A stretch of 64,000 nucleotides of DNA from Bacteroidetes bacterium GWF2_43_63 (GCA_001769275.1 MEOQ01000001.1:4604-68603); one strand, 5' to 3'. Shown: positions 13,385 through 57,400, counted from the first letter of the stretch. The notes: generated by a model not told the origin, from the sequence alone. Made by a program: numbers and translations.

Positions 13385-13586
13385 GAAGGTCACGCGTCGG
13401 AGACGCGCGCCCAATGTCAGTCGCGGCCGTTGTTGCAAACCTCTCTGCGTCTGTCTGTGAGAATAAAATATAATCAGCGTTACTCCGCGTCTGTTTAAGG
13501 TGCTTTCGTGGCAAACTTCTCTGCGCCTTTGAGCTCTCTGCGCGAAACCTATGTTTTTTCTCTGCGCCTTTGCGATCTCTGCGCGA
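13385..13586 (+). repeat. 202-bp direct repeat, copy 1
   Basis: About 13 mismatches against 13704-13905 by eye. Contains 5 TCTCTGCG words. Confidence 0.85.
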
Positions 13587-13703: not shown

Positions 13704-13905
13704 GAAGGTCACGCGTCAGAGACGCGCGCCCAATGTCAGTCGCGGCCGTTGATGCAAACCTCTCTGCGTCTATCTGTGAGAATAAAATTTAATCAGCGTT
13801 ACTCCGCGTCTGTTTATGGTGCTTTCGTGGCAAACCTCTCAGCGTCCCTTCGCTCTCTGCGCGAAACCCATGTTTTTTCTCTGCGCCTTTGCGATCTCTG
13901 CGCGA
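13704..13905 (+). repeat. 202-bp direct repeat, copy 2
   Basis: Offset 319 bp from copy 1. Ends 17 nt from the pepT stop. Confidence 0.85.
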
Positions 13906-15158: not shown

Positions 15159-15263
15159 ATCAACAGGAATTAATTCTTTATCAAAAATACAAGTTTCTGC
15201 GGAATGGAGCAATAAAATTGTTAATCTGGCTGTTTCAAATACCAAACGTCAGCGCAGAAACAT

Positions 15264-15404
15264 CATTCCAACGTCCGATAGCGACATCGGAGCGGGAGGA
15301 CGTGGAACCGTTGTTTCTGCTATTGTTACGACGGTTCCATGTCCCGGCATCAAAGCAAATCGCAACCTCATAACGATGCCGGAACGGTGGAATGTCGTAA
15401 CAAA
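15264..15404 (+). repeat. structured palindromic element, family A copy 1
   Basis: cattccaacgtccg...acgtggaaccgt(19-nt loop)acggttccatgt...cggaacggtggaatgtcgtaacaaa. Confidence 0.7.
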
Positions 15405-15504
15405 GCTTTGCCGTACGGCAGCATGTCAAACACACTTTTTCCTTCTTCATTTCCCAAACAAATATTACTTTTGAGAAAATTATCAGCTAATCAAAAAAAA
15501 CGAT

Positions 15505-19339: not shown

Positions 19340-19673
19340 GTCAATTACATTGGGCGCGCGTCTCCTGACTGCAGCGTTTTACGTTGACGCGTGACCATAA
19401 CTCACCCACAAGCCATTCGAAGAACGTAAGCAGGTTTTAACAAGTCGCACTTCGATACAATGTAGTCTCATGGAGTATGATGCTGAATGCTTCATCACTC
19501 AGTGTGACAGATATATTTAGCCCACTGTCATTCTGAGAACACCAGCAAAACGCGTTTTGCAACCTAAATAAAAAATGACACAAAAGCTGCTGTCACGCTG
19601 AGCCCCGCCGCTGTCACATTGAGCGGAGTCGAAATGTCGATAGCGGGGTAAACTCCGTCGAAGCGTTGGCAGC

Positions 19674-25900: not shown

Positions 25901-28900
25901 CCGGGTGTGGCATACGTGCTGCCATGCCAGGTGTAAGTTTGTCCCTGACACACTTCGACTTCGCTCAGTGTGACATAGGTCGGATAAACGGTCACATTCA
26001 TTGTAACAACCGGAGCACATTGACCAGCGGTTGGGGTGAATGTATAGGTTGCTGTTCCTGCGCTTGCAGTGCTGATTGCAGCGGGGCTCCATGTTCCGGT
26101 AATTCCGTTGGTTGAAGTTGTCGGTAATGTTGCCGGGATTGCTTCTTTGCAATAGGAGCCAGCCTGAACAAAGGCCGGAGTTGTATTTGCATTTACCGTG
26201 ACGCTCATCGTAACTACAGGAGAACAAAGTCCTGCGGCGGGGGTGAACGTATAAACTGTTGTTCCAGCTGTGGCAGTGTTTATTGCAGACGGGCTCCAGG
26301 AGCCACTTACGCCGTTTGTTGATGTTGCTGGTAATGATGCGGGTGTTGCTCCAACACAATAAGGTCCAGGCTGTGTGAATGTCGGTGTTACGACCGGATT
26401 TACAGTAATCGAAAAAACAGTTGAAAACGCTGCAGGGCAGTTTCCACTAACCACTTCGGCCATGAACAGCCATGTTCCGATGGTTGAAATATCTTCGGAC
26501 CATGTTTCATCGGTATTGACAATATCAGTCCAGGTTGTACCCCCGTCATTGCTTGTTTGCCAGCGGGTAATGGTTCCGGTATAACCACTTAGCATAATTG
26601 CTCCGGTATTGCTGCCCGCACAAATGCTTGTATTAGGACCAGTCAATGTTCCGCCCACCGAAACCAGATCGTTGGTTAGTGTTACTGTATTTGATGTTGG
26701 CGAAGTAAGTGATCCATTTACCGTATAACCTTTGTAAGTCCCGGAGGCGAGTCCTGTAAATGTATGCGTGTCTGTTGCCCCAGTCCAGTTGGCAACTGGC
26801 GTTCCACTTCCGGTCTCCAGATAAAATGTTTGATTTGCCGAAACGGTAGAAGATAGTGTAACTGTTCCGGTTCCACAACCCGATGCTGCAGTGGCTGTAA
26901 CAGTAGCTGGAGTCGGACAGTCCATGGTGTGCCAGCCAAGGTGTGTGGCATCGTCAATGGCGTAGGCAGTCCATTCTGCACCAAAGGTTGGAAAACCTGC
27001 CGAAGGATTTGTGGTGACTCCGCCAAAAACAGTACTGTTGCGCACCAGTGTCATATTAAGCATTGACATGGTTCCTGAAGTCCAGGCAGTACCAGGGTCT
27101 TCGCCAATACGTCCCATGATGTCAACATACGAGGCGGTAGAAATTTTGTACAGTGCCAAAGCGTCATCGCCGTTGTAGAAGGTTGCGGTAGTGATGGTGG
27201 TGTCAGTTGTATAAATGGTTGCCAATGAATTTGAATACACTTTTACAGACCCGTTTACCAGCGTTCCGCTCAGCAGATAGTCGGTTGTTGGAGTTGTAGC
27301 GCCGTTCGGATACAGGCGCAACCGATAATCGGAGAGATTTACATCAACCCCTGTTCCATTATAAATTTCGATGTACTTGTTGCTGCTTGATCCTTCCACA
27401 TATTCAGAGATAATAAGGTCAGTGGCACAACCCGCCCCGCCTGCACCACCGGCTATGGTAGAACAAGTTGCAGTTAGTGCTGCAGGCACTGTTTTATAAT
27501 TTACATTCGAAGCGGAATTGGAATACGGATAAATTTTAAAGTAATAAGTTGTTGATGCTGTCAATCCTGAAAAACTAACGCTCTGAATTCCTGCGCTGAT
27601 ATTCTTAACCAGTGTCGCATCCGATTCCGGTGTTCCGTCAACAGGATCAGTAATAGCAGCCAGACTAATGTTGCTGGCTTTGATCAGATATTTATCCGGA
27701 AGAATTGTTCCGATGGCATCGGTCCATGTTAGTGTAATAGATGCGCTGGTGCTGGTTTCGCACGAAAAAGCTGTTGGATGATTTGTGGGTTCCGGTTTTA
27801 GTACAGTATAACTATAGATGGCCGAAGTAGTTGAATTACCGTCATTATCGGTAGCAATAATTCTGTACGTCACAGTTGTCCCTGCAACCTGCGCTGGAAT
27901 GGAGGTTGAAACAATGTAGTTCGGAGCTCCGTTCAGATTCATATTGATGCTGTTGCCGAAGCTGATTCCATCAGTGCACCATTGAAGTACAGCCGTGGAA
28001 ATACTGCCATCATCGGTGATATCAGCCGTAACCGAAACAGTATTAACCGGGCTCGGGAAAAGAGGAGTCTGAATAATATTGGTAATTACTGGAGCAGTTG
28101 AACAGACCGTTGACGTCCATACCAGACACACATATTCCGGATGATCGATGTACGGATTCCGGTTGTGCTGTGGTGTGTTATAGTAAATAGCATTATTTCG
28201 ATTGACTTCTTTTTGGCTCACCGGATCCTGAATATGCCAGCGCACCAGCATATCGATATACCATTGAAGGTAGTTTCCTCCGGTAGTGGTAATGATGTAT
28301 TGTGAATCGTAGGTGTAAGTATTTCTCCAAACACTCAAATAGTTCATATACCGTGTGGCCAGATAAAGATATGCGCGTGCAAAATCGCCTTTGTATTCAT
28401 TGATGGGTTCAAAAACGGAACCTGTAAAACCAGTCAGAGCGCAGGGTCCAACTTTACTTCCATTTGAAGAAGTGTATGTGGGCGCATTTGTTTCGGCAAC
28501 AATGTAATTGCTTTTTCTGTTGTTGACATACTGATCAGTAGGGGGCAGATGATGGAGATCAGAGTACTGAGGATTTGCTGCATTGTCTAAACCGCCCCAC
28601 CAGGAATTTGGCATCTGGTGCTCACGCGAATAACAATCACCTTCTGCACTTGCAGTGCCGCATTGGTCTGTGTATAACGTGAAAGTATAGGCAGGAGTTC
28701 CGCCTGGAATATCTGAATACATATCCCAGATTACGGTGCCCCCGGTTGTTGTTACATCGGTGTAACTATACGCATCCCACACATCGAAGGCTGTGCTTGT
28801 ATAGGGCAGTTTGACATGACCGCTGGTGATTATGTCGCGCAGATTGCCACGCAAAACATCGCCGGTGCCGGTAGCTGAATCGTAGTATCCGGCAGGAATT

Positions 28901-33834: not shown

Positions 33835-34006
33835 CAATGTTCTGAGAGAATGATAAGCAAGTAATATTTTTTCTTCGTTTCACTCGGGAAAAACACTCAG
33901 GATGACAGCAGGGGGTCCCGCGTGCAGTCATCCTGACAATTACGCGACAAGCACCAGCAAAACGCGTTTTATAATCTGAATGAAAAAAGACAATTTGGCA
34001 AACATA

Positions 34007-34115
34007 ATATTCCATCGTCCGATGGCGACGAAGGAGGCGGAGGATATGGAATCGTTATGTTTGCAGCAAAACCGACGATTCCATATTCTACGTTTCTCTC
34101 CGAACGATGGAATAT
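34007..34115 (+). repeat. structured palindromic element, family A copy 2 (short form)
   Basis: tattccatcgtccg...atatggaatcgt(19-nt loop)acgattccatat...cgaacgatggaata. Both stems carry paired substitutions relative to copies 1 and 3. Confidence 0.7.
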
Positions 34116-34198
34116 CGGTTTTGCCCTTCTGTTTGATTTTTAGAGGTTTATACGAGTGTGTCATTAGCAGTTTCGCTACTGTAGCTATTCTTCATAGG

Positions 34199-34283
34199 TT
34201 GGGCGTAGTCTTTCTAAATATATTTGCCGGGTTGAGTCTCCAGACTCAACCCAACAGATTATCTATTTTAGACTACGCCCAGC
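34199..34283. repeat. nested palindromic element, family B copy 2
   Basis: TTGGGCGTAGTC...GGGTTGAGTCtccaGACTCAACCC...GACTACGCCCAGC. Confidence 0.7.
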
Positions 34284-34374
34284 CTAAGATGTACAGTGAA
34301 AATCAACAAAAGAAAACATTGAGTTCCATGTCGCTGTCTGCGTTTCAGCTATACTGATACAACCGTGATCTCAT

Positions 34375-35404: not shown

Positions 35405-38400
35405 TTATCTGATTAAAACAAAATTTCCTTGTCCGTTCACTGCTGTACCATCTCGCAAAGTTCCATCGAACCAATAGCTGTAGATGCCGCTTTCCGACAT
35501 GGTTCCGTCAAAGTTGCCATCCCATCTTCCGTTTGGATCGGAGGTTTCATATACCAGATTTCCCCACTGATTATACACTTTCAGATTCAATGTTTCAAGA
35601 CAGCGATTCATTACGCCAAACACATCGTTTTTCTGATCGTTGTTCGGACTGAATGCATTTGGAACGTAGATGCTGCCACAATCTCCGTCCACCATAACGA
35701 TAACGGTATCGGTAGAAGTGCAACCATATTGGTTGGTTACAAGGAGTATATAGATTGTTGTATCGTCTGCACTGCAAATTGGATTGGCAATAGCTGGATC
35801 CGACAAATTATCAGAAGGCAACCACGAATATGTTCCACCACCGCTTCCGTTCAACTGAACAGTTGCACCTTCTTCAATGGTCGTGTCGATGCCAGCATTG
35901 GCAGTTGGATTTGGATTAACGATTACGGAAATGCTGTCAATATCTGAGCACCCGCCGTTGGTACCGGTAACAAGATAAGTGGCACTTGTTATTCCGCCAA
36001 TAGTAATAGAAGAAGTTGCAGCTCCGGTGTTCCAGGCATAAGTGGTGGCGCCGGAAGCGGATAGTACGGTGGTTTCGTTTTCGCAAATTTCCGTATCACC
36101 ATTGATATTAATATCAGGACTTTGATTTACAACCACTGTTGTATTGGAAGAATTTAAACAACCATTCAAGTCAGTTCCAACCACGGTGTAGGTACCTGCA
36201 TGAGTAAGTTGTGCAGTTGTGATTTCAGGAGTCTGTGAACTGCTACTAAAACCTGCAGGTCCGGCCCAGTAATAATCTGATGCGCCAAGTGCTGAAAGCA
36301 TTATACTCTCGCCAGTGCAATACGGGCCTCCGTTCGAACAGCTGACTGTGGGAAGAGAATTTACAGTTACCACAGACGAAGCCGTTGACGTGCATCCTCC
36401 CGTTCCTGAAACAACAACGGCATAGGTTCCCGAAATAGCCGGAGTTGCGGCTGTAATAGCTGGATTTGCGGCTGAAGAGTTGAATCCTGCGGGACCGCTC
36501 CATGCATACGAAATTCCACCAGTTGCTGTCAGGTTCACGGTCTCACCTGCACAATGTGGTCCATCGTTTATTGCAGATGCAACTGGAATGCTATTTACAA
36601 CCACGTTGGTGGTTTCACTGTCTGTGCATCCATTGGCAGTGGTAACTATTACCGAATATGTTCCTGCGTGAAGAGTGGTTGATGAAGAAATCGTTGGATT
36701 AGCCAGTGAACTGCTGAATCCGTTGGGTCCCGACCATGAATAAGTTGTGCCACCGGTTGCATTCAGTTGAATGTTCTGGCCGGCACAATAGGAGCCGGTG
36801 TTCGATGCTGTTGCTGTTGCCTGTGGATACACATTTACATTGATTGCGGATGTCGCAGAATTAAATCCGTCTGAAACCGTGACGGAATAAATTGTGCTGC
36901 CAGAAGGAACGAGATACGGATTATCGTCGGTTGATGAAAAACCTGTTGGATTTGATGACCATGAATAGTTATAAGAACCGGATCCACCCGAAGCCAGCGC
37001 TGTGAGCGTTACTCCATTTCCGGAACAAACGCCTGGAGCATCAGTTTGTGCAATCACCGAAAGCGCACCGCCACTGACATTGACAGTTACCTGCGATGTT
37101 GACATGCAACCTGTAACCTGATCAGTTACTGTAAGCGTGAAAACAGTCGTTGTTGTCAGATTGGTTGTCTGAGGACTCAAAACATTTGGATTTACCAGCG
37201 ATCCAGAAGGAGACCACGAATACATAAAACTGCCACTACCACCTGAAGCACTTCCCGTCAGGGTTGTGTTGGTTCCAAAAGGAATGGTTTGCGGACTTCC
37301 CGCATTTGCAGTGGGGTTTGAATTTATTGCAACGGTAGTGCTGGTGGTCGAACTACAGCCGGCTGCGTTTGTCACCGTAAGATTATAAGGGCCAGCATTG
37401 GTTGCAGTTGCATTGCTGATGGAAGGCGAGGCTGAAGAAGAGGTGAACCCGTTAGGCCCGGACCAGAGATACGAAGTTCCTCCGCTGCCAGTCAGGTTGA
37501 CTGTTGTCCCGACGCATCGGGGTGAGTTTGATGAGGCCGCTGCTGTTGGAGCCTGATTCACATCAAGCGTGTAGTTCAGATATTGGCGGTATCCGCAAAC
37601 ACCGGTAACTTCAAGACTGTAGGTCATGGTAGTAGCCGGATTTACAGAAATATTCTGCGTGGTCTGTCCGCCCGGATACCAATGATAGGCCGTAGCGCCG
37701 GGTGGTCCGAAAAGAGTTGTTGTACTACCTGCGCAAATAGGATCCTGTGCTGCAGTTATATTTGGGAACTGAACACCCGATTCAGCGCTGATGGTATAGT
37801 TGCAGATATCGCCTGCAAACCCGTCAATCATCAGGTAATAATCGCTGCCGATGGTGAGTCCGCGTGCAGTAATTTCAAAATGAATTCCGCTTTCCTCAAA
37901 ATTTGAAACAGGCGTAAAAGAAGCACAGGGGCTGCCTGCAGAGAACACCTGCATCTGAATACCTGCACCGGCATAACAATCATACACATCAACATTCAGC
38001 ACGGCCGAATCATTTGAAGCGGTAAAACGGAGCCAGGAATTGTTGTTGATTTGCACGTCACAATTAGTTGCTCCGCTACCCCAAACACCACCTGCACCAA
38101 AAATGCCTCCCTGACAGGTTCCGGCTGTGTAAGTGTATAATGGCGGATTATTTGTTTCAGCATTTCCCCGCATGTTTCCTGGTCTGTCGGGTGTATAAGC
38201 TTCGCCGGTCGTTCCTTTGTACCCATTCAAGTCGCAGATGTAGAGCGCGGTTGAACAGGCATCGTTGGTTGGCGTTGTAATACAGAATCCAAAATCACCC
38301 GTTGTATTGCCGCTATAAGCCCAGTAACGCAGAAAAACGGTTGATCCGGGCGCAAGTCCTGATGCCAAAATAAATGGCCTCAGATCGTTTGCAGTCAGAG

Positions 38401-39595
38401 GATAATTATTGTCGTCGGAACAAGCAATCTGTGTGAGCGAGCTGCAGGAGCCGGAGTACAGCGCCATAACTGCATCGCTGAATCCATAACCTGGTTTCGC
38501 CATGATGCTTATTACCCCGGAAGAAGGCACTGTGATTGCAAACCAGACATCTTTTGGCTGAGGAGTGTTGCTGAATCCCCCTTGCATGGGGCTGCTGCCG
38601 CCCGCACAGGAAGCCGGAGTTGGCGCTGATAAGGTTGTTGTTGCATTCGTTGTGGTAAACGAAAGATAAGCGCATGAAGATGTCACCGGTGGAAGTTGAA
38701 TAGCATCGCAGGGCTCATCGTTGGTGGGTGTCGGCGTTGGTGTACCGATGATGCAGATATTAAAAATACTACCTCCGTTGCCGGTGTAATAATCGTAAGT
38801 GCGGATGTAATAAGTTGTACCGGGAATCAATCCAACGGCACTGATGTTTTCGGCATCACCGCTGAAACCCTGATCAACACAATATAAACTGGTGAGAGTA
38901 GCACATGTTCCTGAAAACAATTCCAATACAAGATCTGCTGTTCCGGTCGGAGTAACCTGAATAGTTTGAACTGCATTTGTTGCAACAAAGCGATACCAGA
39001 CATCATCATCTGCAGTTCCCGCACAACCCGTCTGTGACAGGGTTGCAGAGACCGTCGTTCCGGCAGTTGCAACACAGGTTGCGTTCACGTTAAGTAGGGT
39101 TGCATTGCTGCAATTATCGTTGGTCGGCGCCGGAGGTGCAGTAGTTATACACACCGTGAATGTGCCGGAACCAAAACCTGTGAAGTAATGATAAATTCTG
39201 ATTTTATAAACAACTCCAATGGTAAGACCCGTTGCATAAATGGTTTCAGCTTCGCCCGTGAAACCCTGATCCATACAGTTCATAGATGTCAGAGTTGCAC
39301 AGTCACCAGAAAAGAGTTGCAACACGGGATCCATTCCTGCAGAAGGGGTTACCGTAATAATGTGACTGGTTGCGGTTGCGGTGAAAGAGTACCATACATC
39401 ATCGTCGGCGGTACCAACACAACCGGCAATGGTTTGTGTTGCTGTTGCAGTTGTACCCGCAACCGGACTTGAACAATTTAAGGTTATGGGAATGGCACTT
39501 GCAGCCGAACATCCGTCGCTCTGCGCCTGTGTTTCAACAGCTGAAAACATTAAAGCTGCGGACACAAACATCCCGAAAATGAATGTCATTTTCAT
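35405..39595 (-). CDS. large T9SS type B cargo (gliding-motility-associated C-terminal domain protein) with repeated PPC-like and Ig-like domains
   Basis: C-terminus YVPNAFSPNNDQKNDVFGV...LKVYNQWGNLVYE...WDGNFDG...GIYSYWF is the TIGR04131/type B sorting domain. The N-terminus has three DDDVWY-containing ~135-aa repeats, then many Ig-like units. Confidence 0.85.
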   Translation of the reverse strand: MKMTFIFGMFVSAALMFSAVETQAQSDGCSAASAIPITLNCSSPVAGTTATATQTIAGCVGTADDDVWYSFTATATSHIITVTPSAGMDPVLQLFSGDCATLTSMNCMDQGFTGEAETIYATGLTIGVVYKIRIYHYFTGFGSGTFTVCITTAPPAPTNDNCSNATLLNVNATCVATAGTTVSATLSQTGCAGTADDDVWYRFVATNAVQTIQVTPTGTADLVLELFSGTCATLTSLYCVDQGFSGDAENISAVGLIPGTTYYIRTYDYYTGNGGSIFNICIIGTPTPTPTNDEPCDAIQLPPVTSSCAYLSFTTTNATTTLSAPTPASCAGGSSPMQGGFSNTPQPKDVWFAITVPSSGVISIMAKPGYGFSDAVMALYSGSCSSLTQIACSDDNNYPLTANDLRPFILASGLAPGSTVFLRYWAYSGNTTGDFGFCITTPTNDACSTALYICDLNGYKGTTGEAYTPDRPGNMRGNAETNNPPLYTYTAGTCQGGIFGAGGVWGSGATNCDVQINNNSWLRFTASNDSAVLNVDVYDCYAGAGIQMQVFSAGSPCASFTPVSNFEESGIHFEITARGLTIGSDYYLMIDGFAGDICNYTISAESGVQFPNITAAQDPICAGSTTTLFGPPGATAYHWYPGGQTTQNISVNPATTMTYSLEVTGVCGYRQYLNYTLDVNQAPTAAASSNSPRCVGTTVNLTGSGGTSYLWSGPNGFTSSSASPSISNATATNAGPYNLTVTNAAGCSSTTSTTVAINSNPTANAGSPQTIPFGTNTTLTGSASGGSGSFMYSWSPSGSLVNPNVLSPQTTNLTTTTVFTLTVTDQVTGCMSTSQVTVNVSGGALSVIAQTDAPGVCSGNGVTLTALASGGSGSYNYSWSSNPTGFSSTDDNPYLVPSGSTIYSVTVSDGFNSATSAINVNVYPQATATASNTGSYCAGQNIQLNATGGTTYSWSGPNGFSSSLANPTISSSTTLHAGTYSVIVTTANGCTDSETTNVVVNSIPVASAINDGPHCAGETVNLTATGGISYAWSGPAGFNSSAANPAITAATPAISGTYAVVVSGTGGCTSTASSVVTVNSLPTVSCSNGGPYCTGESIMLSALGASDYYWAGPAGFSSSSQTPEITTAQLTHAGTYTVVGTDLNGCLNSSNTTVVVNQSPDININGDTEICENETTVLSASGATTYAWNTGAATSSITIGGITSATYLVTGTNGGCSDIDSISVIVNPNPTANAGIDTTIEEGATVQLNGSGGGTYSWLPSDNLSDPAIANPICSADDTTIYILLVTNQYGCTSTDTVIVMVDGDCGSIYVPNAFSPNNDQKNDVFGVMNRCLETLNLKVYNQWGNLVYETSDPNGRWDGNFDGTMSESGIYSYWFDGTLRDGTAVNGQGNFVLIR

Positions 39596-39607
39596 GATAT
39601 AAGTATT

Positions 39608-39949
39608 TTATAATTCTTTGAATTCGTTTGGTACAAGACCGGAATCAGCGATCAACCTTTTTACGTCGGCCGCATTCAATCCGTTATCCTGTTCACCGGC
39701 TTTTTTATACTCGGAGAAAGTAAAAGTCAGAAGCCCGGCTTTGGTATCATTTTTAAAAACAATTTTTACCTGAACAACGCCGCTGATGTTGTACATGCCG
39801 GCTTCTAATTTATCAAGCTGCTGTTGCGTTGCGTCTCCGGTGAAGCTGTATGAATATTTATTTGTTACAGGATTGTCCGAAGTTTGTGCTTGTGCAATGC
39901 CTGAGGTCACAAAAAAAATAAACAATGTGAATAAAAGTCCCCCTTTCAT
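39608..39949 (-). CDS. small secreted hypothetical protein, first gene of the type B cargo operon
   Basis: MKGGLLFTLFIFFVTSGIAQAQ signal. Lies 12 nt upstream of 35405..39595. Confidence 0.45.
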   Translation of the reverse strand: MKGGLLFTLFIFFVTSGIAQAQTSDNPVTNKYSYSFTGDATQQQLDKLEAGMYNISGVVQVKIVFKNDTKAGLLTFTFSEYKKAGEQDNGLNAADVKRLIADSGLVPNEFKEL

Positions 39950-40090
39950 AATCACTTTTTTACAAATATACAAATTCTGATAACAAAATCAATTTGTACG
40001 TTAAATAAAATGATATTTACTACCAATGGCCAAATTGGTCGATAAATATTAACAAAAAATTTCAGTTCTTTTTCTTGAAGGATTTGTTAG

Positions 40091-40308
40091 AGGCTGTCTC
40101 AAAATTTATTCTTCAGAGCAAAAACAACATTCCACCGTCCGATGCGACGAAGGAGCTGAAGGACATGGAACCGTTGTTTTTGCTATTGTTACGACGGTTC
40201 CATGTTCCGGCTGAGCAGCATCTCTTGAAGAGTTCAAAACCCTTCGATGGATTTTTAACCGGCCGGAACGGTGGAATGTCGTAACAAACCGCTATTTTGA
40301 GACAGCCT
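40091..40308 (+). mobile_element. MITE-like 218-bp element (family A copy 3) with perfect 15-bp terminal inverted repeats
   Basis: AGGCTGTCTCAAAAT (40091-40105) and ATTTTGAGACAGCCT (40294-40308) enclose the family A core at 40128-40288. No coding capacity. Confidence 0.6.
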
Positions 40309-40317
40309 ATAATCCAA

Positions 40318-40812
40318 TCATTGCTTCTCCAGATACCACACTTCTTTTTTGTTGTTGCCGTTATCAAGTCCGGCTGCGGTATTATCAAAAGTTGTCCACA
40401 GCATTTTTCTGCGGCCATCCCATTCAACTGAATAGGAAAAATAATAATACCAGGGGTAATTGTCAATCATAAACTCAATGCGGGTTACATCGTTGTCGGT
40501 TCCGCCCACATCAACGCTCCAGTAATAATCACCGGAACCGGTTCCGCCTGGCAGATTGATGTTTCCGGGATTGCAATACAAATCGTAATGATCGCGCTTT
40601 TTGTTCAGGCCTTCGTCAATCAACGTTACAGTGCCGGGATTGACATATGTTGTGTCCAGCACAAAATCATTTGATGCAGAATCAAAATAGGAGACTTCGG
40701 CTTTTGTGATATTCCAAACTCCATCCATGCGCGAAGCCATATTGTTGTCGGGTGAGCATGAAGCCAGCCACAGAAGCGCCAAAGCAAAGTGTATGTATAA
40801 ATATTTTTTCAT
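40318..40812 (-). CDS. lipoprotein (lipocalin-like suspected)
   Basis: LLWLASCSPD lipobox and a DGVWNITK motif. Confidence 0.5.
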   Translation of the reverse strand: MKKYLYIHFALALLWLASCSPDNNMASRMDGVWNITKAEVSYFDSASNDFVLDTTYVNPGTVTLIDEGLNKKRDHYDLYCNPGNINLPGGTGSGDYYWSVDVGGTDNDVTRIEFMIDNYPWYYYFSYSVEWDGRRKMLWTTFDNTAAGLDNGNNKKEVWYLEKQ

Positions 40813-45092: not shown

Positions 45093-48000
45093 TTACCGTT
45101 CCACCACAACCCGCTTCAACACATAACCTTCAGCGTTTTCAATTTTCAGCATATACACGCCCGGCGCAACGGAATTCAGATCAAACTGAACTGTTTTCTG
45201 TGCAGAAATTTGTTCTTTTTGAATGATTTGTCCGAGTGCATCGATGAATGAAAGCGTATAATCATCTTCGGCGGGGAAGGTGATGGTGAGCTGGCCGGAG
45301 GTTGGATTGGGGAAGATACTGATGTTGCCGTCGTTTAATGATTCAATGCCTGCGCAATCATCAACCACAATATTGACCGATGCACTGTTTTGGCATCCGT
45401 TGGTGTCAGTATAAGTGTATTCTACTGGCCATGTGCCGATGCCGGCTGCGGCAGGATCGAATATGTTTCCACTCATGCCCTGGCCGCTGAAGGTGCCGCC
45501 TGCAGGATTTGCGATGAGAGAAGCTGAAGGATTGTAGATGCAAAAAACACTGTCAGTAATATTGATTTCTACAACAGGCAATGGTTGTACAATTAAATTC
45601 AGTACATGCACAGAGTCGCATCCATATTGGGTTTGCAAGCTGTCATAATAAATTCCGGAGGTGGAATAGTTGTTACCATGCCATGAAAATACGTCGCCTG
45701 TACAAATGTCTGTGTCGTCTGTGATAACAAAATCAGGATGAACAATCAGGTCAAGAACATACAAGCTGTCACAACCGGTCTGTGCCTGCAGCGAATCATA
45801 AAATATTCCCGAAGTATTATAATTGTTTCCGCGCCAGAAATATGTTCCACCATCGCAGATTTCAGCATATTCAGTGAACTCGTATGCCTGTTTTACATTC
45901 AGATTGAGAATGTAGATGCTGTCGCATCCGTGTGCAGTAAGCAAGCTGTCATAGTAGGTCCCTGAGATATTGAAAGGATTGCCGCGCCAGAAATAATTTT
46001 CGTTGCTGCAGATTTCGGCATTTTCCGAGAATTCAAAAGTTGGGTTTACAATGAGGTGAAGCACGTGTATGCTGTCGCAGCCATATGTGGTGCTCAGGCT
46101 GTCATAGTAAGTGCCGGTACTGGTGTAGGTGTTTCCGTGCCAGAAGTAATTCTCATTGTCACACACTTCGACTTCGCTCAGTATCACATAGGTTGGGTGC
46201 ACGATCAGATTGAGAATGAAAACACTGTCGCATCCGTTTTGTGTAGTCAGACTGTCATAATAAATTCCAGTTGTGTCAAGTGTAAATCCTCGCCACGAGT
46301 AGGTTTCGTCGTCGCATATTTCGACTTCGCTCAGTGTGACATAGGTCGGGTGTACAATTAGATTGAGAATATAAATGCTGTCGCAGCCATTAACCGAATT
46401 CAGATTTTCGTAATAAGTTCCGGCGTTGAAATATGTATTTCCTCTCCACAAGTAGCTTTCGTTATCACAAATCTCGACATTCAATACAAATTCATAAGTT
46501 GGGTGGACTTTCAGGTCGAGTACATAAACGCTGTCGCATCCAAAAGCCGCGTTCAGACTGTCATAATAAATGCCCGTATTTTGATATAAATTTCCGCGCC
46601 AAAGGAAGTTTTCGTTATCACAAATTTCGGCATGCTGAACAAACTCAAACGTTGGGTGAACCAACAGGGCGAGAATATAGACGCTGTCGCATCCATGAAC
46701 TGTTGTGAGACTGTCATAATATACGCCGGTGTTGGATAAAATGTTCCCGCGCCAGATGTAGGTTTCGTTGTCGCAAATATGGACAATTTGAGGAATTTCA
46801 TAGGTCGGATGTACTACGAGATTCAGAACAAAAGTGCTGTCGCATCCGAAAGCTGTGTTTAAATAATCATAGTAGGTTCCTGCGCTGGCGTACGTATTCC
46901 CGCGCCAGGTGTAGCTTTCGTGTTTGCATATTTCAGCATTGTGAATGGTTTCGTAATTTGGATGTACGAGCAGATTCAGAATATAAACACTGTCGCAACC
47001 GTAGATTGTGAGCAGACTATCATAGTATGTGCCGGTATCGTAAAGCGATTTCCCGCGCCAGGTGTAAACATCATTATCGCATATTTCAGCAGATTGCGGA
47101 AATTCAAAAGTCGGATGCACTATGATGTGAAGGATGAAAACGCTGTCACAGCCATGTATTGACGTCAGGCTGTCGCGGTATGTTCCAGCATTATAATATG
47201 TATTGCCGCGCCAGAAATAGCTTTCATTATCGCATATTTCAGCAGATTGCGAATATTCAAAAGTCGGATGCACGATCAGATGCAGCACAAAAACGCTGTC
47301 GCATCCATATATGGTGTTCAGACTGTCGTAGTAAGCTCCTGCGTCAAAGTATGTATTACCGCGCCAGGTGTAGCTTTGATTGTCGCACACTTCGGCTTCA
47401 CTAGGTATGACAAAGGTCGGATGTACGATCAAATGCAGAACAAAAACACTGTCGCATCCATACATTGAATTCAGGCTATCGTAGTATATTCCTGCGTCAA
47501 AGTATGTTTCGCCTCGCCAGGTGTAGCTTTCATTATCGCACACTTCGACTTCGCTCAGTGTGACATAGGTCGGGTGCACAATCAGATTGAGAATAAAAAC
47601 ACTGTCGCATCCATACATTGAATTCAGGCTATCGTAGTATATTCCTGCGTCAAAGTATGTTTCGCCTCGCCAGGTATAGCTTTCGTTATCGCATATTTCG
47701 ACTTCGATCGGTGTGACATAGGTCGGATGCACGATCAGATGCAGCACAAAAATGCTGTCGCATCCATATATGGTGTTCAGACTGTCGTAGTAAGTTCCGG
47801 CGTCAAAGTATGTATTACCGCGCCAGGTGTAGCTTTGATTGTCGCACACTTCGGCTTCGCTCGGTATGATAAAGGTGGGATGTACGATCAAATGCAGAAC
47901 AAAAACGCTGTCGCATCCATATACGGTGTTCAGACTATCGTAGTAAGTTCCGGCGGCAAAGTATGTGTTGCCGCGCCAGGTGTAGCTTTCATTATCGCAC

Positions 48001-51000
48001 ACTTCGACTTCGCTCAGTGTGACATAGGTCGGATGAACAATCAGATTGAGAATAAAAACACTGTCGCATCCATACATTGAATTCAGGCTATCGTAGTAAG
48101 TTCCTGCGTCAAAGTATGTTTCGCCGCGCCAGGTATAGCTTTCATTATCGCAAATTTCGACTTCGATCGGTGTGACATAGGTCGGATGCACGATCAGATT
48201 CAGAACAAAAACGCTGTCGCATCCATATACGGTGTTCAAGTTATCGTAGTAAGTTCCGGCGTCAAAGTATGTATTACCGCGCCAGGTATAGCTTTGATTG
48301 TCGCACACTTCGGCTTCGCTCAAAGTGACATAGGTCGGGTGCTCTATCAGGTGCAGAATATAAACACTGTCGCATCCATAAATCGTGTTTAAACTATCGT
48401 AATATGTTCCGGCATCGAAATAGGTTTTACCGCGCCATGAGAAACTTTCGTTGTCGCACATTTCTGCATAATTATCAAATTCAAATGTTGGGTGAACAAT
48501 GAGATTAAGCACGTAAACGCTATCGCATCCGTACTGGGTGATCAGGCTGTCATAATAGGTTCCGGCAAGTGTGTAGTTGTCTCCTCTCCAAAACAAGCTT
48601 TCATTGTCGCATGTCTCCTTGTTTTCGGTAATCTCATAGTGAGGTCTTACATGTAGAATTGCAGTGTTGGAAATTACGACTGATTCAGGACAGGTTGATG
48701 TAATGATGCACCTGTATAAATAATTATTCATACTCGCCGGGACCGCATTCAAATGTAGAGAATCTGTCTGCGAACCAGAGTACATAGAATTGTCCGAGAT
48801 GTTTACAAAGCCTGCGCCTGGGTTGACCTGCCATTGGTAGGTGAGCCAGTTGCCGGTTGCGAAAGATTTGAAAAAAGTGTTTTCGCCGAGACAAACAGAT
48901 GCGTCACTGACGGGTCGTACAAACTCCGGAGCATTACAAACTTCAACGAGTTTTGTATAATAAGGATTTTTACCCTTATCGGCATCAAAATCAAATTTCT
49001 TCACCAGCAGTCCGGTGGCCGGATCAAATTCAAATAAAACACCAAGGTTGTTGACACCACCGTCTTTTGTCACGCCATACAGTTTGCCTCCCGAGGATTC
49101 CAATAATGTTCCTTCCGGATCATTTCCGTTGGCAATACCTGTAAAATCTATTTTTTTTGTAAAAACGGAATTAACCGGATCAAATTCAAAGAGTACGCCC
49201 ATGTTGCTCACACCGCCATTGGAAGTGAGCCCGTAAAGCATTCCATTCGATGCCAGCGTCAGCGATCCGTAGGGATTGGCTCCGTTGGTGACTCCTGCAA
49301 AATCAACTTTATTGGTGAAGGTGTTTGATGTGATATCGTATTCAAAAAGAACGCCCATGTCGTTTAATCCTCCGCTGTAGGTCATGGCATAGAGTTTTCC
49401 GTTGCCGGCCATAACAAAATCGCCATATGGATTGGCCCCGGTTGCCAGGCCGTCAAACGAATGTTTTAAAGAAAAGAGGTCGCTGTTATAATTGTATTGA
49501 AAGATAATACCAAGGTCATTAATCCCGCCAAAGGATGTCATGCCGTATAAGTCTCCGGTGCTGGTTTCTATAAGTGAGCCGTAAGGATAACTCCCGGTCA
49601 GGGCGCTGTCGAGATGCCTTTTGACAATGTTGATTCCTGTCGCGGGATCAAATTCATACAAGGTCCCTTTGTCGTTGATGCCGCCACTATAGGTCATTCC
49701 ATACAGTTTCCCATTCGCTGCTTCGGACATGTTGCCGACCGGAAAACCTCCGTTTGTTGCATTGTCGTAGTCGAGCACTTTTGTGAAGACATTTCCGATT
49801 GGATTAATATTGAAAATTACGCCGAATTCGTTTTGTCCTCCATAGGTCGTATTTCCGTAAAGCATATTATCAGCGGTGTAGATAAGCGATCCGTACGGAT
49901 ACGCGCCGTTTACGGTTATTGCAAAATCAATTTTTTTTGCAAACGAATTTGTTGTGCAATCATACTCAAACAAGACGCCGTTGTTGTTGGGACCCCCGGA
50001 GTTTGTTACGCCGTATTGTTTCCCATCGGAAGCGGTCATTAATGATCCAAAGGGGGCGCTTCCCATTGTCAATCCGTCGAAATCCTGTTTGCGGGTCAGG
50101 ATGCCGGATGTGGGGTCAAAATCAAAGATTACACCTTTGTCGTTGGTTCCTCCACCCGAAGTCATACCCGTTAAAACCCCACATGCATTAATCAGTGTTC
50201 CATATGGGGACCTGCCGTTTAATGGTCCGTCAAAATCAATTTTCTTTGTAAAAACAGAAGTGACCGGATTGTATTCAAACAACACTCCGAGGTTGAGGGT
50301 GCCTCCCTGGGCAGTCATTCCGTACAACATTCCATTTGAATACTCTGTGAGCGATCCATATGGTCCCCGACCGTTGGCTGCACCTGTGAAATCAATTTTT
50401 TTGAGAACTGTTCCGGTGCTGATATTATATTCAAAAAGAACACCCAGACTGGATGTTCCTCCGCGGAAAGTCATTCCATAAAGCAACCCATTTGAAGCTT
50501 GCATCAGTGTTCCGTAAGGATTTTTGCCAGTGACTGTACCGTCAAAATCCCATTTTTTTATCAGAATACCCGTAGCCGGATTGAATTCAAACAACACCCC
50601 GGAGTTGCTTGCACCACCACCTGAGGTCAGACCGTAAAGCAAGCCATTCGAAGCCAACATCAGAGATCCAAATGGATTACGCCCGGTTGTTGCCGAAACC
50701 AAGTCAATTTTTTTGACAAAAACGCTGTTTATGGGATCGTATTCGAATAGCACGCCCGCGTTGCTTGCTCCACCACTCTGTGTCATACCGTATAATTTTC
50801 CGTTTGGAGCCAGGGTGAGTGATCCGTAGGGATTTCTACCATCCGTGGTGCCGTTGAATATCACCATTGGGGTAAATATCCCGGTGGTATTATCGAATTC
50901 GTACAACACCCCAGCGTCGTTTGGGCCACCGCCGAAAGTCATTCCATAGAGCTTCCCGTTTGTGGCTTCACAGAGCTGACTGTATAATGGATTTCTTCCA

Positions 51001-54400: not shown

Positions 54401-57400
54401 ATATACATTGTAGTCAACATCCAGCGTCAGATGATACACGCTGTCGCATCCAAGCGACGATGTATAATATTTATGGTAGATGCCTTCATAATCGTAAATT
54501 TCTCCATGCCACAACATGGCACCGCCTTCGCAAATAGTTGCCACATCATTAAATTCATATATCGGATTTATATTCAGGTGAAGAAAATACGAACTATCAC
54601 ACCCAGCCAAAGTTGTGTATGAATCCTGATAAATGCCGCTTTCGGTATACGGCATTCCACGCCAGGTGTAGATGTCGCCGTCGCAGATTGAAGCGGTGTC
54701 ATTGAAAGCATATCCGGTGCCTGCTGTAGTTGTCAGCGTGAGCTGATAGGTGCTGTCGCAGCCATACATGGAATTGTAATGTGCATAATAGGTTCCGGCG
54801 GCATTGTAAATATTATTCTGCCACAGATAAGCACTTCCGGTACAGATGGAAGCTGTTTCATTGAAATTGTATTCACTGCGGATATTCAATTCGCTGGAGT
54901 TTGAATTGACATTGATGGACGGACAGGTAGAGCTCACCACGCAGCGATACACGTATCCGTTCATAGCGGAATTTGCTCCTGAAATATGCAATGTGTCATT
55001 ATTCACTCCGCTGTAAACTGCATCATTGCTAAGGTTAGAATATCCTGAACCAAAATCTGCCTGCCAGGTATATGAAATTCCATTGCCGGACACATTCACG
55101 TAAAGCATAGTGTCGCTTGGATTACAGAGATCGAGCGCCGACAGATTATGGCTGAATTGCGGGCGTTGACATACTTCTATTAGTTTAGGGTTAGATACAT
55201 AACCTTCCTCGCTTATTCCGAAAGTGAATTTTGAAACTAGTGAATCTGTAAGTGGATCATATTGGAATAAAACGCCACCTTCTCCACCAATCACTCCATT
55301 GGTCACTCCATACAGCTTGCCGTTGGAAGTACGAGTGAGACTGCCCAACGGTTTCTCCGTGCCAATTGAAGCAAGATCGGCCAGTTTTGTGAACTGGCTA
55401 TACTCCGTATCATAACTGTATAAAATGCCGGCATCTGACCCACCACCATCTCTTGTTATACCCCACAACATGCCTGCGCTGTCGGCTTCCAGTCTGCCTT
55501 GTGGATGTCTGCCAAGTGAATCGGTGCCAAACTGATGCATAATCTCAATAACACCAGGACTAACGTATTTGAAAAGACTGTTTTCCGCCAAGTGAATTCC
55601 ATACAGATTTCCATCCGAGGCCAATGTTATATTTCCATTGGAGCCACCTGAAGAAAAATTATTTAAAACGGTGTACGTTTCTGAATTATAATCATACCCG
55701 AATACTACACCGCCACCATTGGTGCCGCCACTCTGTGTGACTCCATATAAAACATGATTCGATCCTTCAGCCAATGTTACCCCGGATGGTTGACAACCGC
55801 TTTGAATATTGAGTTGCGCTTTTGTTTCGAAGAGGCCTATTGAAGGATCAAATTCGAATAAAGTGCCCACGCAGTTTTCAATGTCACTGAGCGTCATTCC
55901 ATATAATTTATTATTCGAAGCCAGCAGCATTGTGCCTGACGGATAGCCAAAATCAAAGGGGCTAAATGAGTGTTGTACCTCAATGTTTTCGGTTACCGGA
56001 TCAATGGAATAAATCACTCCTCCGTCTAAATCACCTCCAACTAAAGTCATTCCATACAACAATCCATCGGGACCGGCAGTGAGTCCGCCATCGGGATAAT
56101 ATCCTTCCGCGTCGAAATAATGCACAGCGGTTAAATTATCTCCATTACCATCTGTTTTGTAAATAAAACCGGCATTGTTCGGGCCACCTTCCATTGACAC
56201 CCCCCAAAGCTCGCTCAGGATAGGCTCTTTGAAATAAATGGTCACTGCATAAATAGAATCACATCCAGCCTGCGTAACAAATGAGTCATAATAGGTGCCG
56301 CTGGCTGTAATTGCTTGTCCGTGCCAGTTTACGGTTTCACCAATAATTGCATTGGTTGTAAGATTGAAATGATAGGAAGGGTTCACTGTCAGGTGGAGGA
56401 AGTAGGTGCTGTCGCATCCTGCCTGCGTCAGATAATGATCTTCGTAAATTCCGGATGAGAAATAATTGTCACCATGCCAGGAGAAATTATCATCACTGCA
56501 AATAGCAACGGTGTCGTGGAAGGCGTATCCTGATCCGGGATTTACCGTGAGCGTGAGTTCAAAAATACTGTCGCAACCTTCGGCAGTCAGCGGATTGTAA
56601 ACATGCGTACCAGCGGTAGTGTACACACTGTCTTGCCACAGATATGCAGAGCCACTACAGATTTCAGCAGATTCGGCAGAAAAATATATTGGATTAACAG
56701 TAAGATGTAAATTGTACACCTCGCAGCCATAGACCGTTTCAGTGATATCGGTATAATTTCCAGCCGATGAATAGGTGTTTCCGTGCCAGGTGTAGGTTTG
56801 GCCCTGACAAATTGAATAATTTTCGTCGTAAATGTAGGAGTCGTAACCTTCATCGATTCCGCCATCACAGTTATCGTCAAGTCCATTACAAAATTCATAG
56901 GCATCCGGATTGATGTATTCATCTGAGTCGTCACAGTCCATGTTGTTTTCAACATATCCGAGAGGCATCGTGCAGGATTGAATTGTTTCAAACGGATTGC
57001 CATATCCATCAACATCGGTATCGGCATACCAGAATGGCGCCCATTCCACATTTTCATCAATGTCGCCATCGCAGTCATTGTCTTCGCCATCGCATATTTC
57101 GATTGCATACGGGTAGGTGCTCTGATTGTTATCATCACAATCGAGTTTGTTGTCAACATAGCCATAGGGCGGAACACAAGCGTAAATGGAATCAAGGGTA
57201 AAACCATAACCGTCCCAGTCATTATCCACATACCACCACATTGCATCAAGTGCATTGTCGTCAACGGTGCCATTACAGTCATTGTCCCAGCCATCGCAAA
57301 TCTCTGGGGCACCCGGATAAACATTGGAATTACTGTCGTCACAATCCTGATTATTGCCAACATAACCAGGCGACGGATTACATTCCGAAACAGAGTTATA

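What the first reader, a model, noticed from the sequence alone, without database searches (positions are those of the whole stretch)
40091..40308. Dispersed ~110-220 bp element with two nested stems that show four compensatory base-pair changes between copies
- **Seen, copies:** three copies lie at 15264-15404, 34007-34115 and 40128-40288. The last sits inside a 218-bp unit with perfect 15-bp terminal inverted repeats.
- **Seen, architecture:** all copies share an outer stem, a small hairpin, an inner 12-bp stem with a 19-nt loop, and the closing outer stem.
- **Seen, outer stem:** copy 3 has CATTCCACCGT / ACGGTGGAATG and copy 2 has TATTCCATCGT / ACGATGGAATA.
- **Seen, inner stem:** copy 3 has ACATGGAACCGT / ACGGTTCCATGT and copy 2 has ATATGGAATCGT / ACGATTCCATAT.
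- **Seen, covariation:** every C-to-T change in a left arm is matched by a G-to-A change in the right arm, at 4 pairs. Copy 1 has a G.T at one position, which would be a G.U wobble in RNA.
- **Seen, context:** the copies sit in a divergent, a convergent and a tandem intergenic region, all in the same absolute orientation. A cis-regulatory leader is therefore unlikely.
- **Inference:** this is either a MITE-like mobile element whose hairpin is under selection, or a structured small-RNA gene family. Hairpin-templated repair of palindromic DNA is an alternative explanation for the paired changes.
Basis: seen in the sequence. Interest (0 to 1): 0.65.

Follow-up and report, generated by a model that had tools for sequence, protein, structure and literature searches.

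The report
REP-doublet palindromic repeat of Bacteroidota
The three copies are members of a family of small palindromic intergenic repeats, each a pair of inverted hairpins, whose close relatives flank a dedicated REP-type transposase gene (RAYT) in related uncultured Bacteroidota; this is a new member of a known kind of selfish repeat, not a new RNA gene.

Summary
**Observation:** it holds. There are three + strand copies (15250-15405, 33994-34125, 40112-40289). Copy 3 has a perfect 15-bp terminal inverted repeat, and four C-G to T-A double changes separate copy 3 from copy 2.

**Distribution:** no Rfam family matches. One metagenome scan gave about 95 distinct copies.

**Architecture:** each element reads a-x-[loop]-y'-a' b-y-[loop]-x'-b'. 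That is two imperfect hairpins, H1 and H2, where H2 is the inverted version of H1. Two folds are possible:
- two side-by-side hairpins (a:a', b:b').

Both folds are supported by paired changes and lie within 2-8 kcal/mol of each other.

**Family link:** the same hairpin, CAAC-TTTCCATCGTCC...GGACATGGAAACGTTG, occurs in tandem arrays on both sides of RAYT-like genes (HUH NHFH, YIHQNP) in at least six different genomic contexts. The covariance model built from the window-type copies matches a unit 63 nt from one such gene (E 3e-7).

**Other features:**
- no target-site duplication;
- no orientation bias relative to neighbouring genes;
- no consistent G.T versus A.C strand asymmetry;
- presence/absence, inversion and loop-module swaps at orthologous sites;
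- nesting inside the loops of other palindromic repeats.

**Verdict:** a REPIN-like REP doublet, and a new member of a known kind. No RAYT lies in the window, and trans-mobilisation is inferred. The small-RNA reading is not supported.

The parts
40091..40105 (+). Left terminal inverted repeat of copy 3 (AGGCTGTCTCAAAAT). Family consensus is GAGGCTGTCTCAAAA.
   Evidence: the same repeat bounds 47 distinct A-type copies
40118..40183 (+). Copy 3, hairpin H1 (a REP unit in reverse orientation). Arms: a 40118-40128, x 40128-40138, conserved loop GCGACGAAGGAG, y' 40163-40174, a' 40173-40183.
   Evidence: Same unit as the CAAC-TTTCCATCGTCC..GGACATGGAAACGTTG hairpin next to RAYT genes
40186..40287 (+). 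Copy 3, hairpin H2 (a REP unit in forward orientation). Arms: b 40186-40195, y 40194-40205, variable inner hairpin module about 40206-40267, x' 40268-40278, b' 40278-40287.
   Evidence: The inner module differs between orthologous copies
40294..40308 (+). Right terminal inverted repeat of copy 3 (ATTTTGAGACAGCCT).
15250..15405 (+). Copy 1, an A-type REP doublet with degenerate terminal repeats (GGCTGTTTCAAA at 15228-15239). It lies in the divergent intergenic region between an M20 peptidase gene and a Xaa-Pro aminopeptidase gene.
   Evidence: Present at the same site in relatives with 91% identical protein (L117, L118), absent in an 86% relative (L116)
33994..34125 (+). Copy 2, a B-type REP doublet with all four variable pairs T-A. 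It has no GAGGCTG terminal repeats. It sits in the loop of another repeat (the carrier), which extends to about 33930-34330.
19519..19665 (+). Carrier repeat of the kind that surrounds B-type doublets, here without a doublet (an 'empty' form). The loop caaaagctgc lies between TGACA and TGTCA.

Best explanation
**What it is.** Each copy is a REPIN-like element, that is, two REP-type imperfect palindromes in inverted orientation. They belong to a REP family of uncultured Bacteroidota (Bacteroidales-like) genomes.

**Layout.** The order is a-x-[loop P2]-y'-a' followed by b-y-[loop P4]-x'-b'.
- Each half can fold on itself, giving hairpins H1 and H2 side by side. In A-type copies the 15-bp terminal repeats close a third stem.
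- Alternatively, the halves can pair with each other (x:x', y:y').

**What is shown:**
- the architecture;
- the pairing and its compensatory changes;
- the kinship with hairpins that flank RAYT genes;
- the lack of target duplications;
- site polymorphism between related genomes.

**What is inferred:**
- The elements are non-autonomous and are copied in trans. A single-copy RAYT (an HUH/Y1 nuclease) would recognise the folded hairpin in single-stranded DNA, as proposed for REPINs.
- The compensatory changes exist because only copies that still fold are recognised, or because the two halves are homogenised.
- New copies preferentially land in the loops of other hairpins. This would explain the nesting inside the GAGGCTG palindrome, the TGACA/TGTCA carrier and the GTAGTCT palindrome.
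For: 1. **Family size.** About 95 distinct copies came from one metagenome pattern scan, and more from the covariance-model search.
2. **Pairing.** In an alignment of 79 distinct copies, 98.3% of cells pair, against 89.4% in shuffles and 32-55% when partners are slid. Thirteen pairs change on both sides, across all four helices.
3. **Inverted doublet.** H2 is the reverse complement of H1 in its arms, so the element is an inverted doublet.
4. **RAYT-like gene.** L066 carries a 218-aa ORF with NHFH and YIHQNP motifs.
   - It matches NCBIfam REP_Tyr_transpos at E 6e-14 and Pfam Y1_Tnp at E 2e-4.
   - Its only PDB match is E. coli TnpArep, 4ER8.
   - Homologs are named RayT.
5. **Flanking arrays.** That ORF is flanked on both sides by arrays of CAAC-TTTCCATCGTCC..GGACATGGAAACGTTG and a second hairpin class. 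The same holds for homologs of 55-77% identity in other genomes.
6. **Model match.** The model built from window-type copies matches, over its full length, a unit 63 nt downstream of that ORF at E 3e-7. The match includes the CGAAGGA loop motif.
7. **Covariation of the hairpin's own stem.** The stem exists in at least 11 perfectly complementary 7-mer versions, such as TTTCCAT/ATGGAAA, TTTCGAT/ATCGAAA and CTTCCAG/CTGGAAG.
8. **No target-site duplication**.
9. **Polymorphism at orthologous sites.** Opposite orientation in L013 versus L061; different loop modules; element absent in L116 and L053; carrier repeat found filled and empty.
10. **Literature.** Compensatory changes are reported as common in REPINs (PMC3116915). 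REP dimers nested in longer palindromes are reported (PMC3733652). A Bacteroidetes RAYT subclass, 2.6, flanked by atypical structures without GTAG is reported (PMC6006769).
Against: - No RAYT gene lies in the window or in any locus that holds an A- or B-type copy. The cognate enzyme of these two subfamilies, and its presence in this genome, are therefore not shown.
- The RAYT-like ORF scores below the curated cut-offs of both profile libraries.
- The canonical GTAG foot of REPs is absent.
- Copy number per genome is unknown. The density seen is modest: 3 in 64 kb, and 1-2 hits per 130-330 kb contig.
- Most double changes come from one subfamily split.
- No transposition intermediate or activity can be shown with these tools.
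Confidence: 0.72

Rival explanations
1. A family of structured small-RNA genes. The four-way junction, or two-hairpin fold, would be the functional RNA, and the covariation would reflect selection on RNA structure.
For: - Strong folding z-scores.
- Covariation in all helices.
- A conserved unpaired motif, GCGACGAAGGAG.
- G.T but never A.C at two outer-stem pairs.
Against: - No Rfam family matches, even at E 10.
- Orientation is random relative to flanking genes: 14 sense against 18 antisense in tandem contexts.
- No conserved promoter or terminator.
- The G.T excess rests mainly on one column pair, shared by 33 copies of two subfamilies, and T24 can instead pair with A55 in the other fold.
- The inner stem and the b:b' helix show A.C mismatches.
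- The element is inverted at an orthologous site.
- Relatives occur as tandem arrays around a transposase gene.
Confidence: 0.07
2. A classical MITE. It would be a deletion derivative of a DDE-transposase insertion sequence that shares the 15-bp terminal inverted repeats GAGGCTGTCTCAAAA, moved by cut-and-paste.
For: - Conserved 15-bp terminal inverted repeats on 47 distinct A-type copies.
- Size of 170-240 bp.
- Intergenic location.
Against: - No target-site duplication of 2-8 bp at any boundary offset.
- No pair of these repeats encloses a transposase in about 700 kb of loci.
- B-type and RAYT-flanking relatives lack the terminal repeats altogether.
- REP dimers enclosed in longer palindromes are already described (PMC3733652).
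Confidence: 0.08
3. Primarily a host cis-element, such as an mRNA 3'-end stabiliser, a terminator or a protein-binding site. It would be kept for that role, as has been shown for some enterobacterial REPs. This is not exclusive of a REP origin.
For: - Enriched in convergent regions (18) and tandem regions (32) over divergent ones (8).
- Often 14-40 nt from a gene end.
- Copy 1 is kept at the same site in relatives with 91% identical protein.
Against: - No T-run follows the stems. The one terminator-like hit is a weak internal one on the minus strand.
- Copies also sit in divergent promoter regions (copy 1).
- Presence/absence between close relatives.
Confidence: 0.08
4. An invertible DNA switch (inverton). 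The 15-bp inverted repeats would be recombination sites for an invertase that flips the 165-190 bp interior.
For: - At one orthologous site (L013 versus L061, flanks 94-96% identical) the interior lies in opposite orientations between identical terminal repeats.
- Bacteroidota are rich in invertons (general knowledge).
Against: - The two versions also differ in their inner module and at other positions, so this is not a simple flip.
- No promoter-like motif lies inside (and inspection for TAnnTTTG).
- About 100 near-identical interiors at unrelated loci, with kinship to RAYT-flanking repeats, fit a repeat family better.
Confidence: 0.03

Closest known systems
[quoted passage not shown] Pseudomonas fluorescens and E. 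coli (Bertels & Rainey 2011, PMC3116915)
   Same: - Two imperfect palindromes in inverted orientation that can fold into one long hairpin.
- Extragenic and dispersed.
- Compensatory changes across the hairpin.
- No target duplication.
- Tandem clusters occur.
- The same palindromes flank a Y1/HUH transposase-like gene.
   Different: - No GTAG/GTGG foot.
- The two halves have different basal stems (a:a' and b:b'), so two side-by-side hairpins compete with the long hairpin.
- Loops carry swappable mini-palindromes.
- Many copies are enclosed in a further 15-bp inverted repeat.
- The host phylum is Bacteroidota.
- The cognate RAYT of the window's two subfamilies has not been found.
TnpA-Y1 subclass 2.6 'REPtrons' of Bacteroidetes (Quentin et al. 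2018, PMC6006769)
   Same: - The Y motif YIHQNP matches the subclass signature YIH[QN]NP.
- Length is similar: the ORF here is 218 aa, against a subclass mean of 179 aa.
- Host phylum is the same.
- The genes are flanked by atypical hairpins without GTAG, and copies of these occur elsewhere in the genome.
   Different: - The HUH motif is NHFH, not NH[LIV]H.
- A search of both held supplementary files for TTCCAT and ATGGAA hit only subclass 2.4 rows, and the listed 2.6 hairpins that were read are unrelated in sequence.
- The doublet organisation and the nesting are not described there.
CGTC-tagged REPs and their dimers inside longer palindromes (Di Nocera et al. 2013, PMC3733652)
   Same: - Present in Bacteroidetes.
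- Mostly head-to-head dimers.
- Dimers sit inside longer palindromic sequences.
- Stems begin with AT/TT followed by CC (compare Neisseria dRS3, ATTCCC..GGGAAT, from my own knowledge).
- A CGTC tetranucleotide is present.
   Different: - Here CGTC lies inside the stem-bulge region (TTCCAT-CGTC-C), not as an unpaired end tag.
- Stems are longer and interrupted, and loops run from 3 to more than 60 nt.
- There is no CCA tail.
- CGTC REPs were reported to lack an associated transposase, whereas this family flanks RAYT genes.
BIMEs of enterobacteria (mosaics of alternating REPs)
   Same: The RAYT-flanking relatives form tandem arrays that alternate two hairpin classes with fixed linkers, with a period of about 110 nt.
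   Different: The sequences are unrelated. Binding of IHF or gyrase has not been tested.

Membership tests
REP / REPIN | The unit is a short imperfect palindrome that folds as a stem-loop. | tested here: met
   H1 and H2 fold in all copies. The 7-bp core stem exists in at least 11 perfectly complementary versions.
REP / REPIN | [quoted passage not shown] | tested here: met
   x:x' and y':y pair in 99-100% of cells over 79 copies, with double changes at 4 pairs. H2 arms are the reverse complement of H1 arms.
REP / REPIN | Many dispersed extragenic copies within one genome. | tested here: inconclusive
   All copies are extragenic. About 95 distinct copies were found across metagenomes. Only 3 lie in the 64-kb window, and 1-2 pattern hits per 130-330 kb contig. 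No complete genome was available.
REP / REPIN | The same palindromes flank a RAYT gene (a REPtron). | tested here: inconclusive
   Met for sibling variants in at least six genomic contexts, and the model of the window-type element matches next to a RAYT at E 3e-7. Not shown for the A and B subfamilies or for the window's genome: there is no RAYT in the window or in their loci.
REP / REPIN | A conserved GT[AG]G tetranucleotide at the 5' foot. | tested here: not met
   The feet are CAAC/GTTG, CGAC/GTCG and TGAC/GTCA. PMC6006769 reports the same lack for subclass 2.6 and class 3.
REP / REPIN | Excision or transposition dependent on RAYT. | not testable with these tools
   This needs read-level population data or biochemistry.
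CGTC-tagged REP (Di Nocera 2013) | An unpaired CGTC tag at one end, an 8-9 bp stem, a 4-5 nt loop and a CCA tail. | tested here: not met
   CGTC is internal (TTCCAT-CGTC-C). The stem is interrupted and longer. Loops run from 3 to more than 60 nt. There is no CCA tail.
Classical (DDE-type) MITE | Terminal inverted repeats. | tested here: met
   A 15-bp GAGGCTGTCTCAAAA repeat bounds 47 distinct A-type copies. It is absent from B-type copies.
Classical (DDE-type) MITE | A target-site duplication of fixed length. | tested here: not met
   No excess of 2-8 bp direct repeats at any of 5 boundary offsets.
Classical (DDE-type) MITE | A parental insertion sequence with the same ends. | tested here: not met
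   No pair of the repeats encloses a transposase gene in the loci held. The search space was limited to about 700 kb.
Any Rfam RNA family | A match to a curated covariance model. | tested here: not met
   Across the whole window only a tRNA reaches the gathering score. An E <= 10 scan of 39900-40500 gives only chance microRNA hits.
RAYT (the L066 ORF) | HUH and catalytic Y motifs, and similarity to TnpArep. | tested here: met
   - Motifs NHFH and YIHQNP.
- NF047646 at E 6e-14, which at 52 bits is below the cut-off of 80.
- PF01797 at E 2e-4.
- The only PDB hit is 4ER8 TnpArep.
- Homologs are named RayT.

The most novel reading that the evidence does not exclude
The family may show a hairpin-loop-directed way of spreading.
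- REP doublets, and even 14-nt mini-palindromes (TTCGCCGCGGCGAA, TCCGCCAGCTGGCGGA), appear to enter and leave the loops of other palindromic repeats. The result is Russian-doll structures: GTAGTCT palindrome > GAGGCTG palindrome > doublet > loop module.
- This would imply that this poorly studied Bacteroidota RAYT clade integrates single-stranded hairpins specifically into exposed hairpin loops.
- The two near-isoenergetic folds, both kept by covariation, could be successive states of that reaction rather than an accident of symmetry.
Probability: 0.2. Interest if true: 0.55.

Novelty: new member of a known kind. Interest (0 to 1): 0.3.

Why it matters
REP/REPIN-RAYT systems are well studied only in Proteobacteria. 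For the Bacteroidota RAYT clade, the literature found here records only 'atypical secondary structures'.

- This family gives that clade a defined substrate with clear anatomy: a hairpin with a 7-bp covarying stem, a bulged C/G and a GTCC/GGAC clamp.
- It shows that the doublet (REPIN) organisation, the compensatory evolution and the nesting in other palindromes extend to another phylum.
- Practically, these repeats break metagenome assemblies. Several contigs start or end inside a copy, and many RAYT contigs are about 1 kb long.
- They also create spurious ORFs, such as the 69-aa ORF at 40075-40284 and the 125-aa ORF at 33980-34357.
- They could be mistaken for small-RNA genes by covariation screens.

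Tried and rejected
- **Rfam.** Searched at gathering threshold over the whole window, and at E <= 10 around copy 3. Nothing relevant.
- **Genome collection.** A loop-anchored pattern gave only one true hit (L003, a Bacteroidaceae MAG) and three apparently chance hits in unrelated phyla (not inspected). The window's own genome is apparently not in that collection.
- **Viral contigs.** No match.
- **Target-site duplications.** None.
- **Parental transposon.** Looked for pairs of the terminal repeat 0.7-5 kb apart, and for ORFs between inverted copies. Only ordinary genes were found.
- **RAYT near the copies.** A tblastn of two RAYT sequences against the window and every locus held hit only loci with RAYT-flanking (type C) arrays. 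None is in the window or in a locus with an A- or B-type copy.
- **Cognate RAYT.** Seven RAYT homologs were looked up in the hope of finding one flanked by A- or B-type units. All had sibling variants instead.
- **Coding hypothesis.** The short ORFs through the element were considered, because an ATG/GTG follows a GGAGG-like motif. This is rejected. The C-to-T changes are non-synonymous (Pro to Ser). The ORFs end at different places in the three copies. Bacteroidia do not use Shine-Dalgarno sequences.
- **Strand test.** G.T against A.C counts gave no consistent asymmetry once the alternative fold is considered.
- **Single REP units in the window.** A regex scan found none, but it was too strict for the mismatched A-type arms.
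- **Promoter/terminator scan.** Nothing conserved. Note that the scan is sigma-70-type and is not suited to Bacteroidota.

Full report
**1. The observation**

The three copies are real and lie on the + strand.
- A 28-nt motif from the unpaired part, GTCCGAT(N)GCGACNNNGGAGNNGNAGGA, occurs exactly three times in the window. Shuffles gave none.
- Copy 3 is bounded by a perfect 15-bp inverted repeat, 40091-40105 against 40294-40308.
Copy 2 differs from copy 3 by four C-G to T-A double changes, and copy 1 has one G.T.
- All copies fold far better than shuffles, with z from -4.3 to -9.0.
- No Rfam family matches. The whole window at gathering score gives only a tRNA. A permissive scan around copy 3 gives only chance microRNA hits.
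- The window comes from an uncultured Bacteroidota MAG. Identical flanking genes occur in GCA_003518945.1 and in an ENA scaffold, and a CHU_C/T9SS protein lies next door.

**2. More copies**

- A loop-anchored pattern found only one true relative among species-representative genomes: L003, a Bacteroidaceae MAG.
- A stem-anchored pattern found 91 stretches in metagenome contigs, about 95 distinct copies. One of these records is titled as an activated-sludge metagenome.
- Two main subfamilies appear.
  - A-type (copies 1 and 3) is bounded by GAGGCTGTCTCAAAA / TTTTGAGACAGCCTC.
  - B-type (copy 2) lacks these ends but has conserved flanks of about 75 nt upstream and about 110 nt downstream.
- Hybrids and intermediates exist. 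L020 has T.G at three of the four variable pairs.
- A covariance model built from 79 distinct copies finds only the three known copies in the window, plus several divergent ones in the loci.

**3. Anatomy**

The element reads a-x-[P2]-y'-a' followed by b-y-[P4]-x'-b'.
- A second fold pairs a with a' and b with b'. This gives two adjacent hairpins, H1 and H2, and the terminal repeats form a third stem.
- On the 79-copy alignment all four helices pair in 97-100% of cells. Overall 98.3% pair, against 89.4% in shuffles and 32-55% when partners are slid. Thirteen pairs change on both sides.
- With the full arms included, the two folds differ by only 2-8 kcal/mol. The two-hairpin fold wins for copies 1 and 3, and the nested fold wins for copy 2.
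- The arms of H2 are the reverse complement of the arms of H1. The element is therefore an inverted doublet of one imperfect palindrome. Each half pairs imperfectly with itself and perfectly with its partner.
- Most double changes trace to one split between subfamilies, so they count as few events.
- In the wider family, however, the hairpin's own 7-bp stem occurs in at least 11 perfectly complementary versions. That is many independent compensations.
- There is no consistent strand asymmetry.
  - The outer stem has 35 G.T and no A.C. Nearly all of these are one column pair, shared by two subfamilies, and its T can pair with an A in the other fold.
  - The inner stem and the b:b' helix carry A.C mismatches.

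**4. Kinship with transposase-flanking repeats**

- A motif scan of all held DNA for HUH...Y found one ORF, L066 493-1149. It is 218 aa long and carries NHFH and YIHQNP.
- That ORF matches several independent references.
  - NCBIfam 'REP-associated tyrosine transposase' at E 6e-14, below the curated cut-off.
  - Pfam Y1_Tnp at E 2e-4.
  - As its only PDB hit, E. coli TnpArep 4ER8.
  - Its homologs are widely named RayT and come from Bacteroidales, Bacteroidota and Flavobacterium.
- YIHQNP is the signature of TnpA-Y1 subclass 2.6. Quentin et al. describe that subclass as mostly Bacteroidetes and flanked by atypical hairpins without GTAG (PMC6006769).
- The ORF is flanked on both sides by tandem arrays that alternate two hairpin classes. 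One is CAAC-TTTCCATCGTCC-loop-GGACATGGAAACGTTG. The window's H1 is CAAC-ATTCCAcCGTCC-loop-GGAcATGGAAcCGTTG, and H2 is the same unit inverted.
- The window-type model matches, over its full length, a unit 63 nt downstream of the ORF at E 3e-7 in 47 kb. The match includes the CGAAGGA loop motif.
- RAYT homologs of 55-77% identity in other genomes are flanked by the same kind of arrays, with lineage-specific stem variants such as TTTCGAT/ATCGAAA.
- No RAYT lies in the window or in any A- or B-type locus. This is expected for a single-copy gene, but it leaves the cognate enzyme unidentified.

**5. Behaviour in genomes**

- There is no target-site duplication. Flanks are slightly more palindromic than re-paired controls, 3.98 against 3.20 +/- 0.24 complementary positions.
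- Of 58 copies with two neighbouring ORFs, 18 are in convergent regions, 32 in tandem regions (14 sense, 18 antisense) and 8 in divergent regions. There is no orientation rule, and divergent regions are mildly avoided.
- Orthologous sites differ in several ways.
  - L013 and L061 have flanks 94-96% identical, but the element lies in opposite orientation with a different P4 module.
  - L019/L072 and L051/L055 share orientation but differ in P4.
  - Copy 1 is present in relatives with 91% identical protein, with another P4 and an extra 14-nt mini-palindrome. It is absent in an 86% relative that keeps the neighbouring genes.
  - L021 carries about 480 bp of stacked palindromic modules that L053 lacks.
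- The repeat that surrounds B-type doublets also occurs without a doublet, at window 19519-19665 and at five other loci. In the filled form about 215 nt replace a 10-nt hairpin loop.
- Many A-type copies lie inside a further GTAGTCT...AGACTAC palindrome. That palindrome occurs by itself at window 34196-34286.

**6. Interpretation**

The element is best read as a REPIN-like REP doublet of a RAYT-associated REP family in Bacteroidota.
- The architecture, the pairing, the kinship and the site polymorphism are shown.
- Mobilisation in trans through hairpin recognition in single-stranded DNA, and the preference for inserting into hairpin loops, are inferred by analogy with REPIN/RAYT and IS200/IS605 systems.
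- Compensatory changes across REPIN hairpins, and REP dimers nested in longer palindromes, are both on record (PMC3116915, PMC3733652).
- The small-RNA, classical-MITE, host cis-element and inverton readings are weighed under rival explanations. None fits as well.

**7. Novelty**

- The kind is known. This particular family is not among the listed hairpins in the held supplementary files of PMC6006769. The substrings TTCCAT and ATGGAA hit only subclass 2.4 rows, and the 2.6 rows that were read are unrelated.
- Literature searches found no description of REPINs in Bacteroidota.
- It departs from canonical REPINs in four ways:
  - it lacks GTAG;
  - its two halves have different basal stems, so two folds compete;
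  - its loops carry swappable modules;
  - it is nested inside other palindromes.
- I rate it a new member of a known kind, of modest interest.

Noticed in passing
window 19519-19665: This is a repeat of the kind that surrounds B-type doublets, here without a doublet: CTGTCATTCTGAGA..CCAGCAAAACGCGTTTTGCAACC..AAATGACA-caaaagctgc-TGTCACGCTGAGC. It is part of a widespread TGTCAT-CTGAG repeat family. Related motifs also occur at 11719-11749, 19480-19510, 21207-21251, 23043-23068 and 23196-23221, some of them inside coding tandem repeats.
   Followed up: partly
window 34196-34286: A separate palindromic element, GGGCGTAGTCT..GGGTTGAGTCTCCAGACTCAACCC..AGACTACGCCC. It is also seen in L082 and L095. 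Its outer arms, GTAGTCT/AGACTAC, enclose many A-type copies about 23 nt outside their terminal repeats.
   Followed up: partly
L117:1210-1589 and L118:1189-1568 (against window copy 1); L021:7221-7386; L059:7516-7678; L046:2754-2908: The 14-nt mini-palindrome TTCGCCGCGGCGAA appears inside the element in some copies and not in their orthologs. TCCGCCAGCTGGCGGA behaves in the same way as a P4 loop module.
   Followed up: partly
window 13385-13586 and 13704-13905: A 202-nt direct repeat, 94% identical, with 319 nt start-to-start spacing, in an intergenic region. It is rich in CTCTGCGC motifs. Its nature is unknown.
   Followed up: no
window 20467-26004, 45583-48629, 49019-50951, 56862-57922: Long tandem arrays with periods of 153, 153, 156 and 204 nt, all multiples of three. 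They presumably encode repeat domains of giant surface proteins. A 1396-aa CHU_C/T9SS protein lies at 35405-39595.
   Followed up: no
window 40075-40284 and 33980-34357: ORFs of 69 and 125 aa run through copies 3 and 2. One was called as a gene in a public assembly (L002 3529-3738). They are most likely artefacts of the repeat.
   Followed up: partly
L113:358-2111: A RAYT homolog lies next to HRDC, bAvd and RVT_1 genes, which resembles a diversity-generating retroelement cassette. In L104 a second RAYT copy (partial, cut off by the contig end) follows the first in tandem, separated by hairpin arrays.
   Followed up: no
L003:1-53 and L003:3539-3713: This 3.7-kb contig begins and ends inside a copy of the element, and many RAYT contigs are only about 1 kb long. 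These repeats break short-read assemblies.
   Followed up: partly
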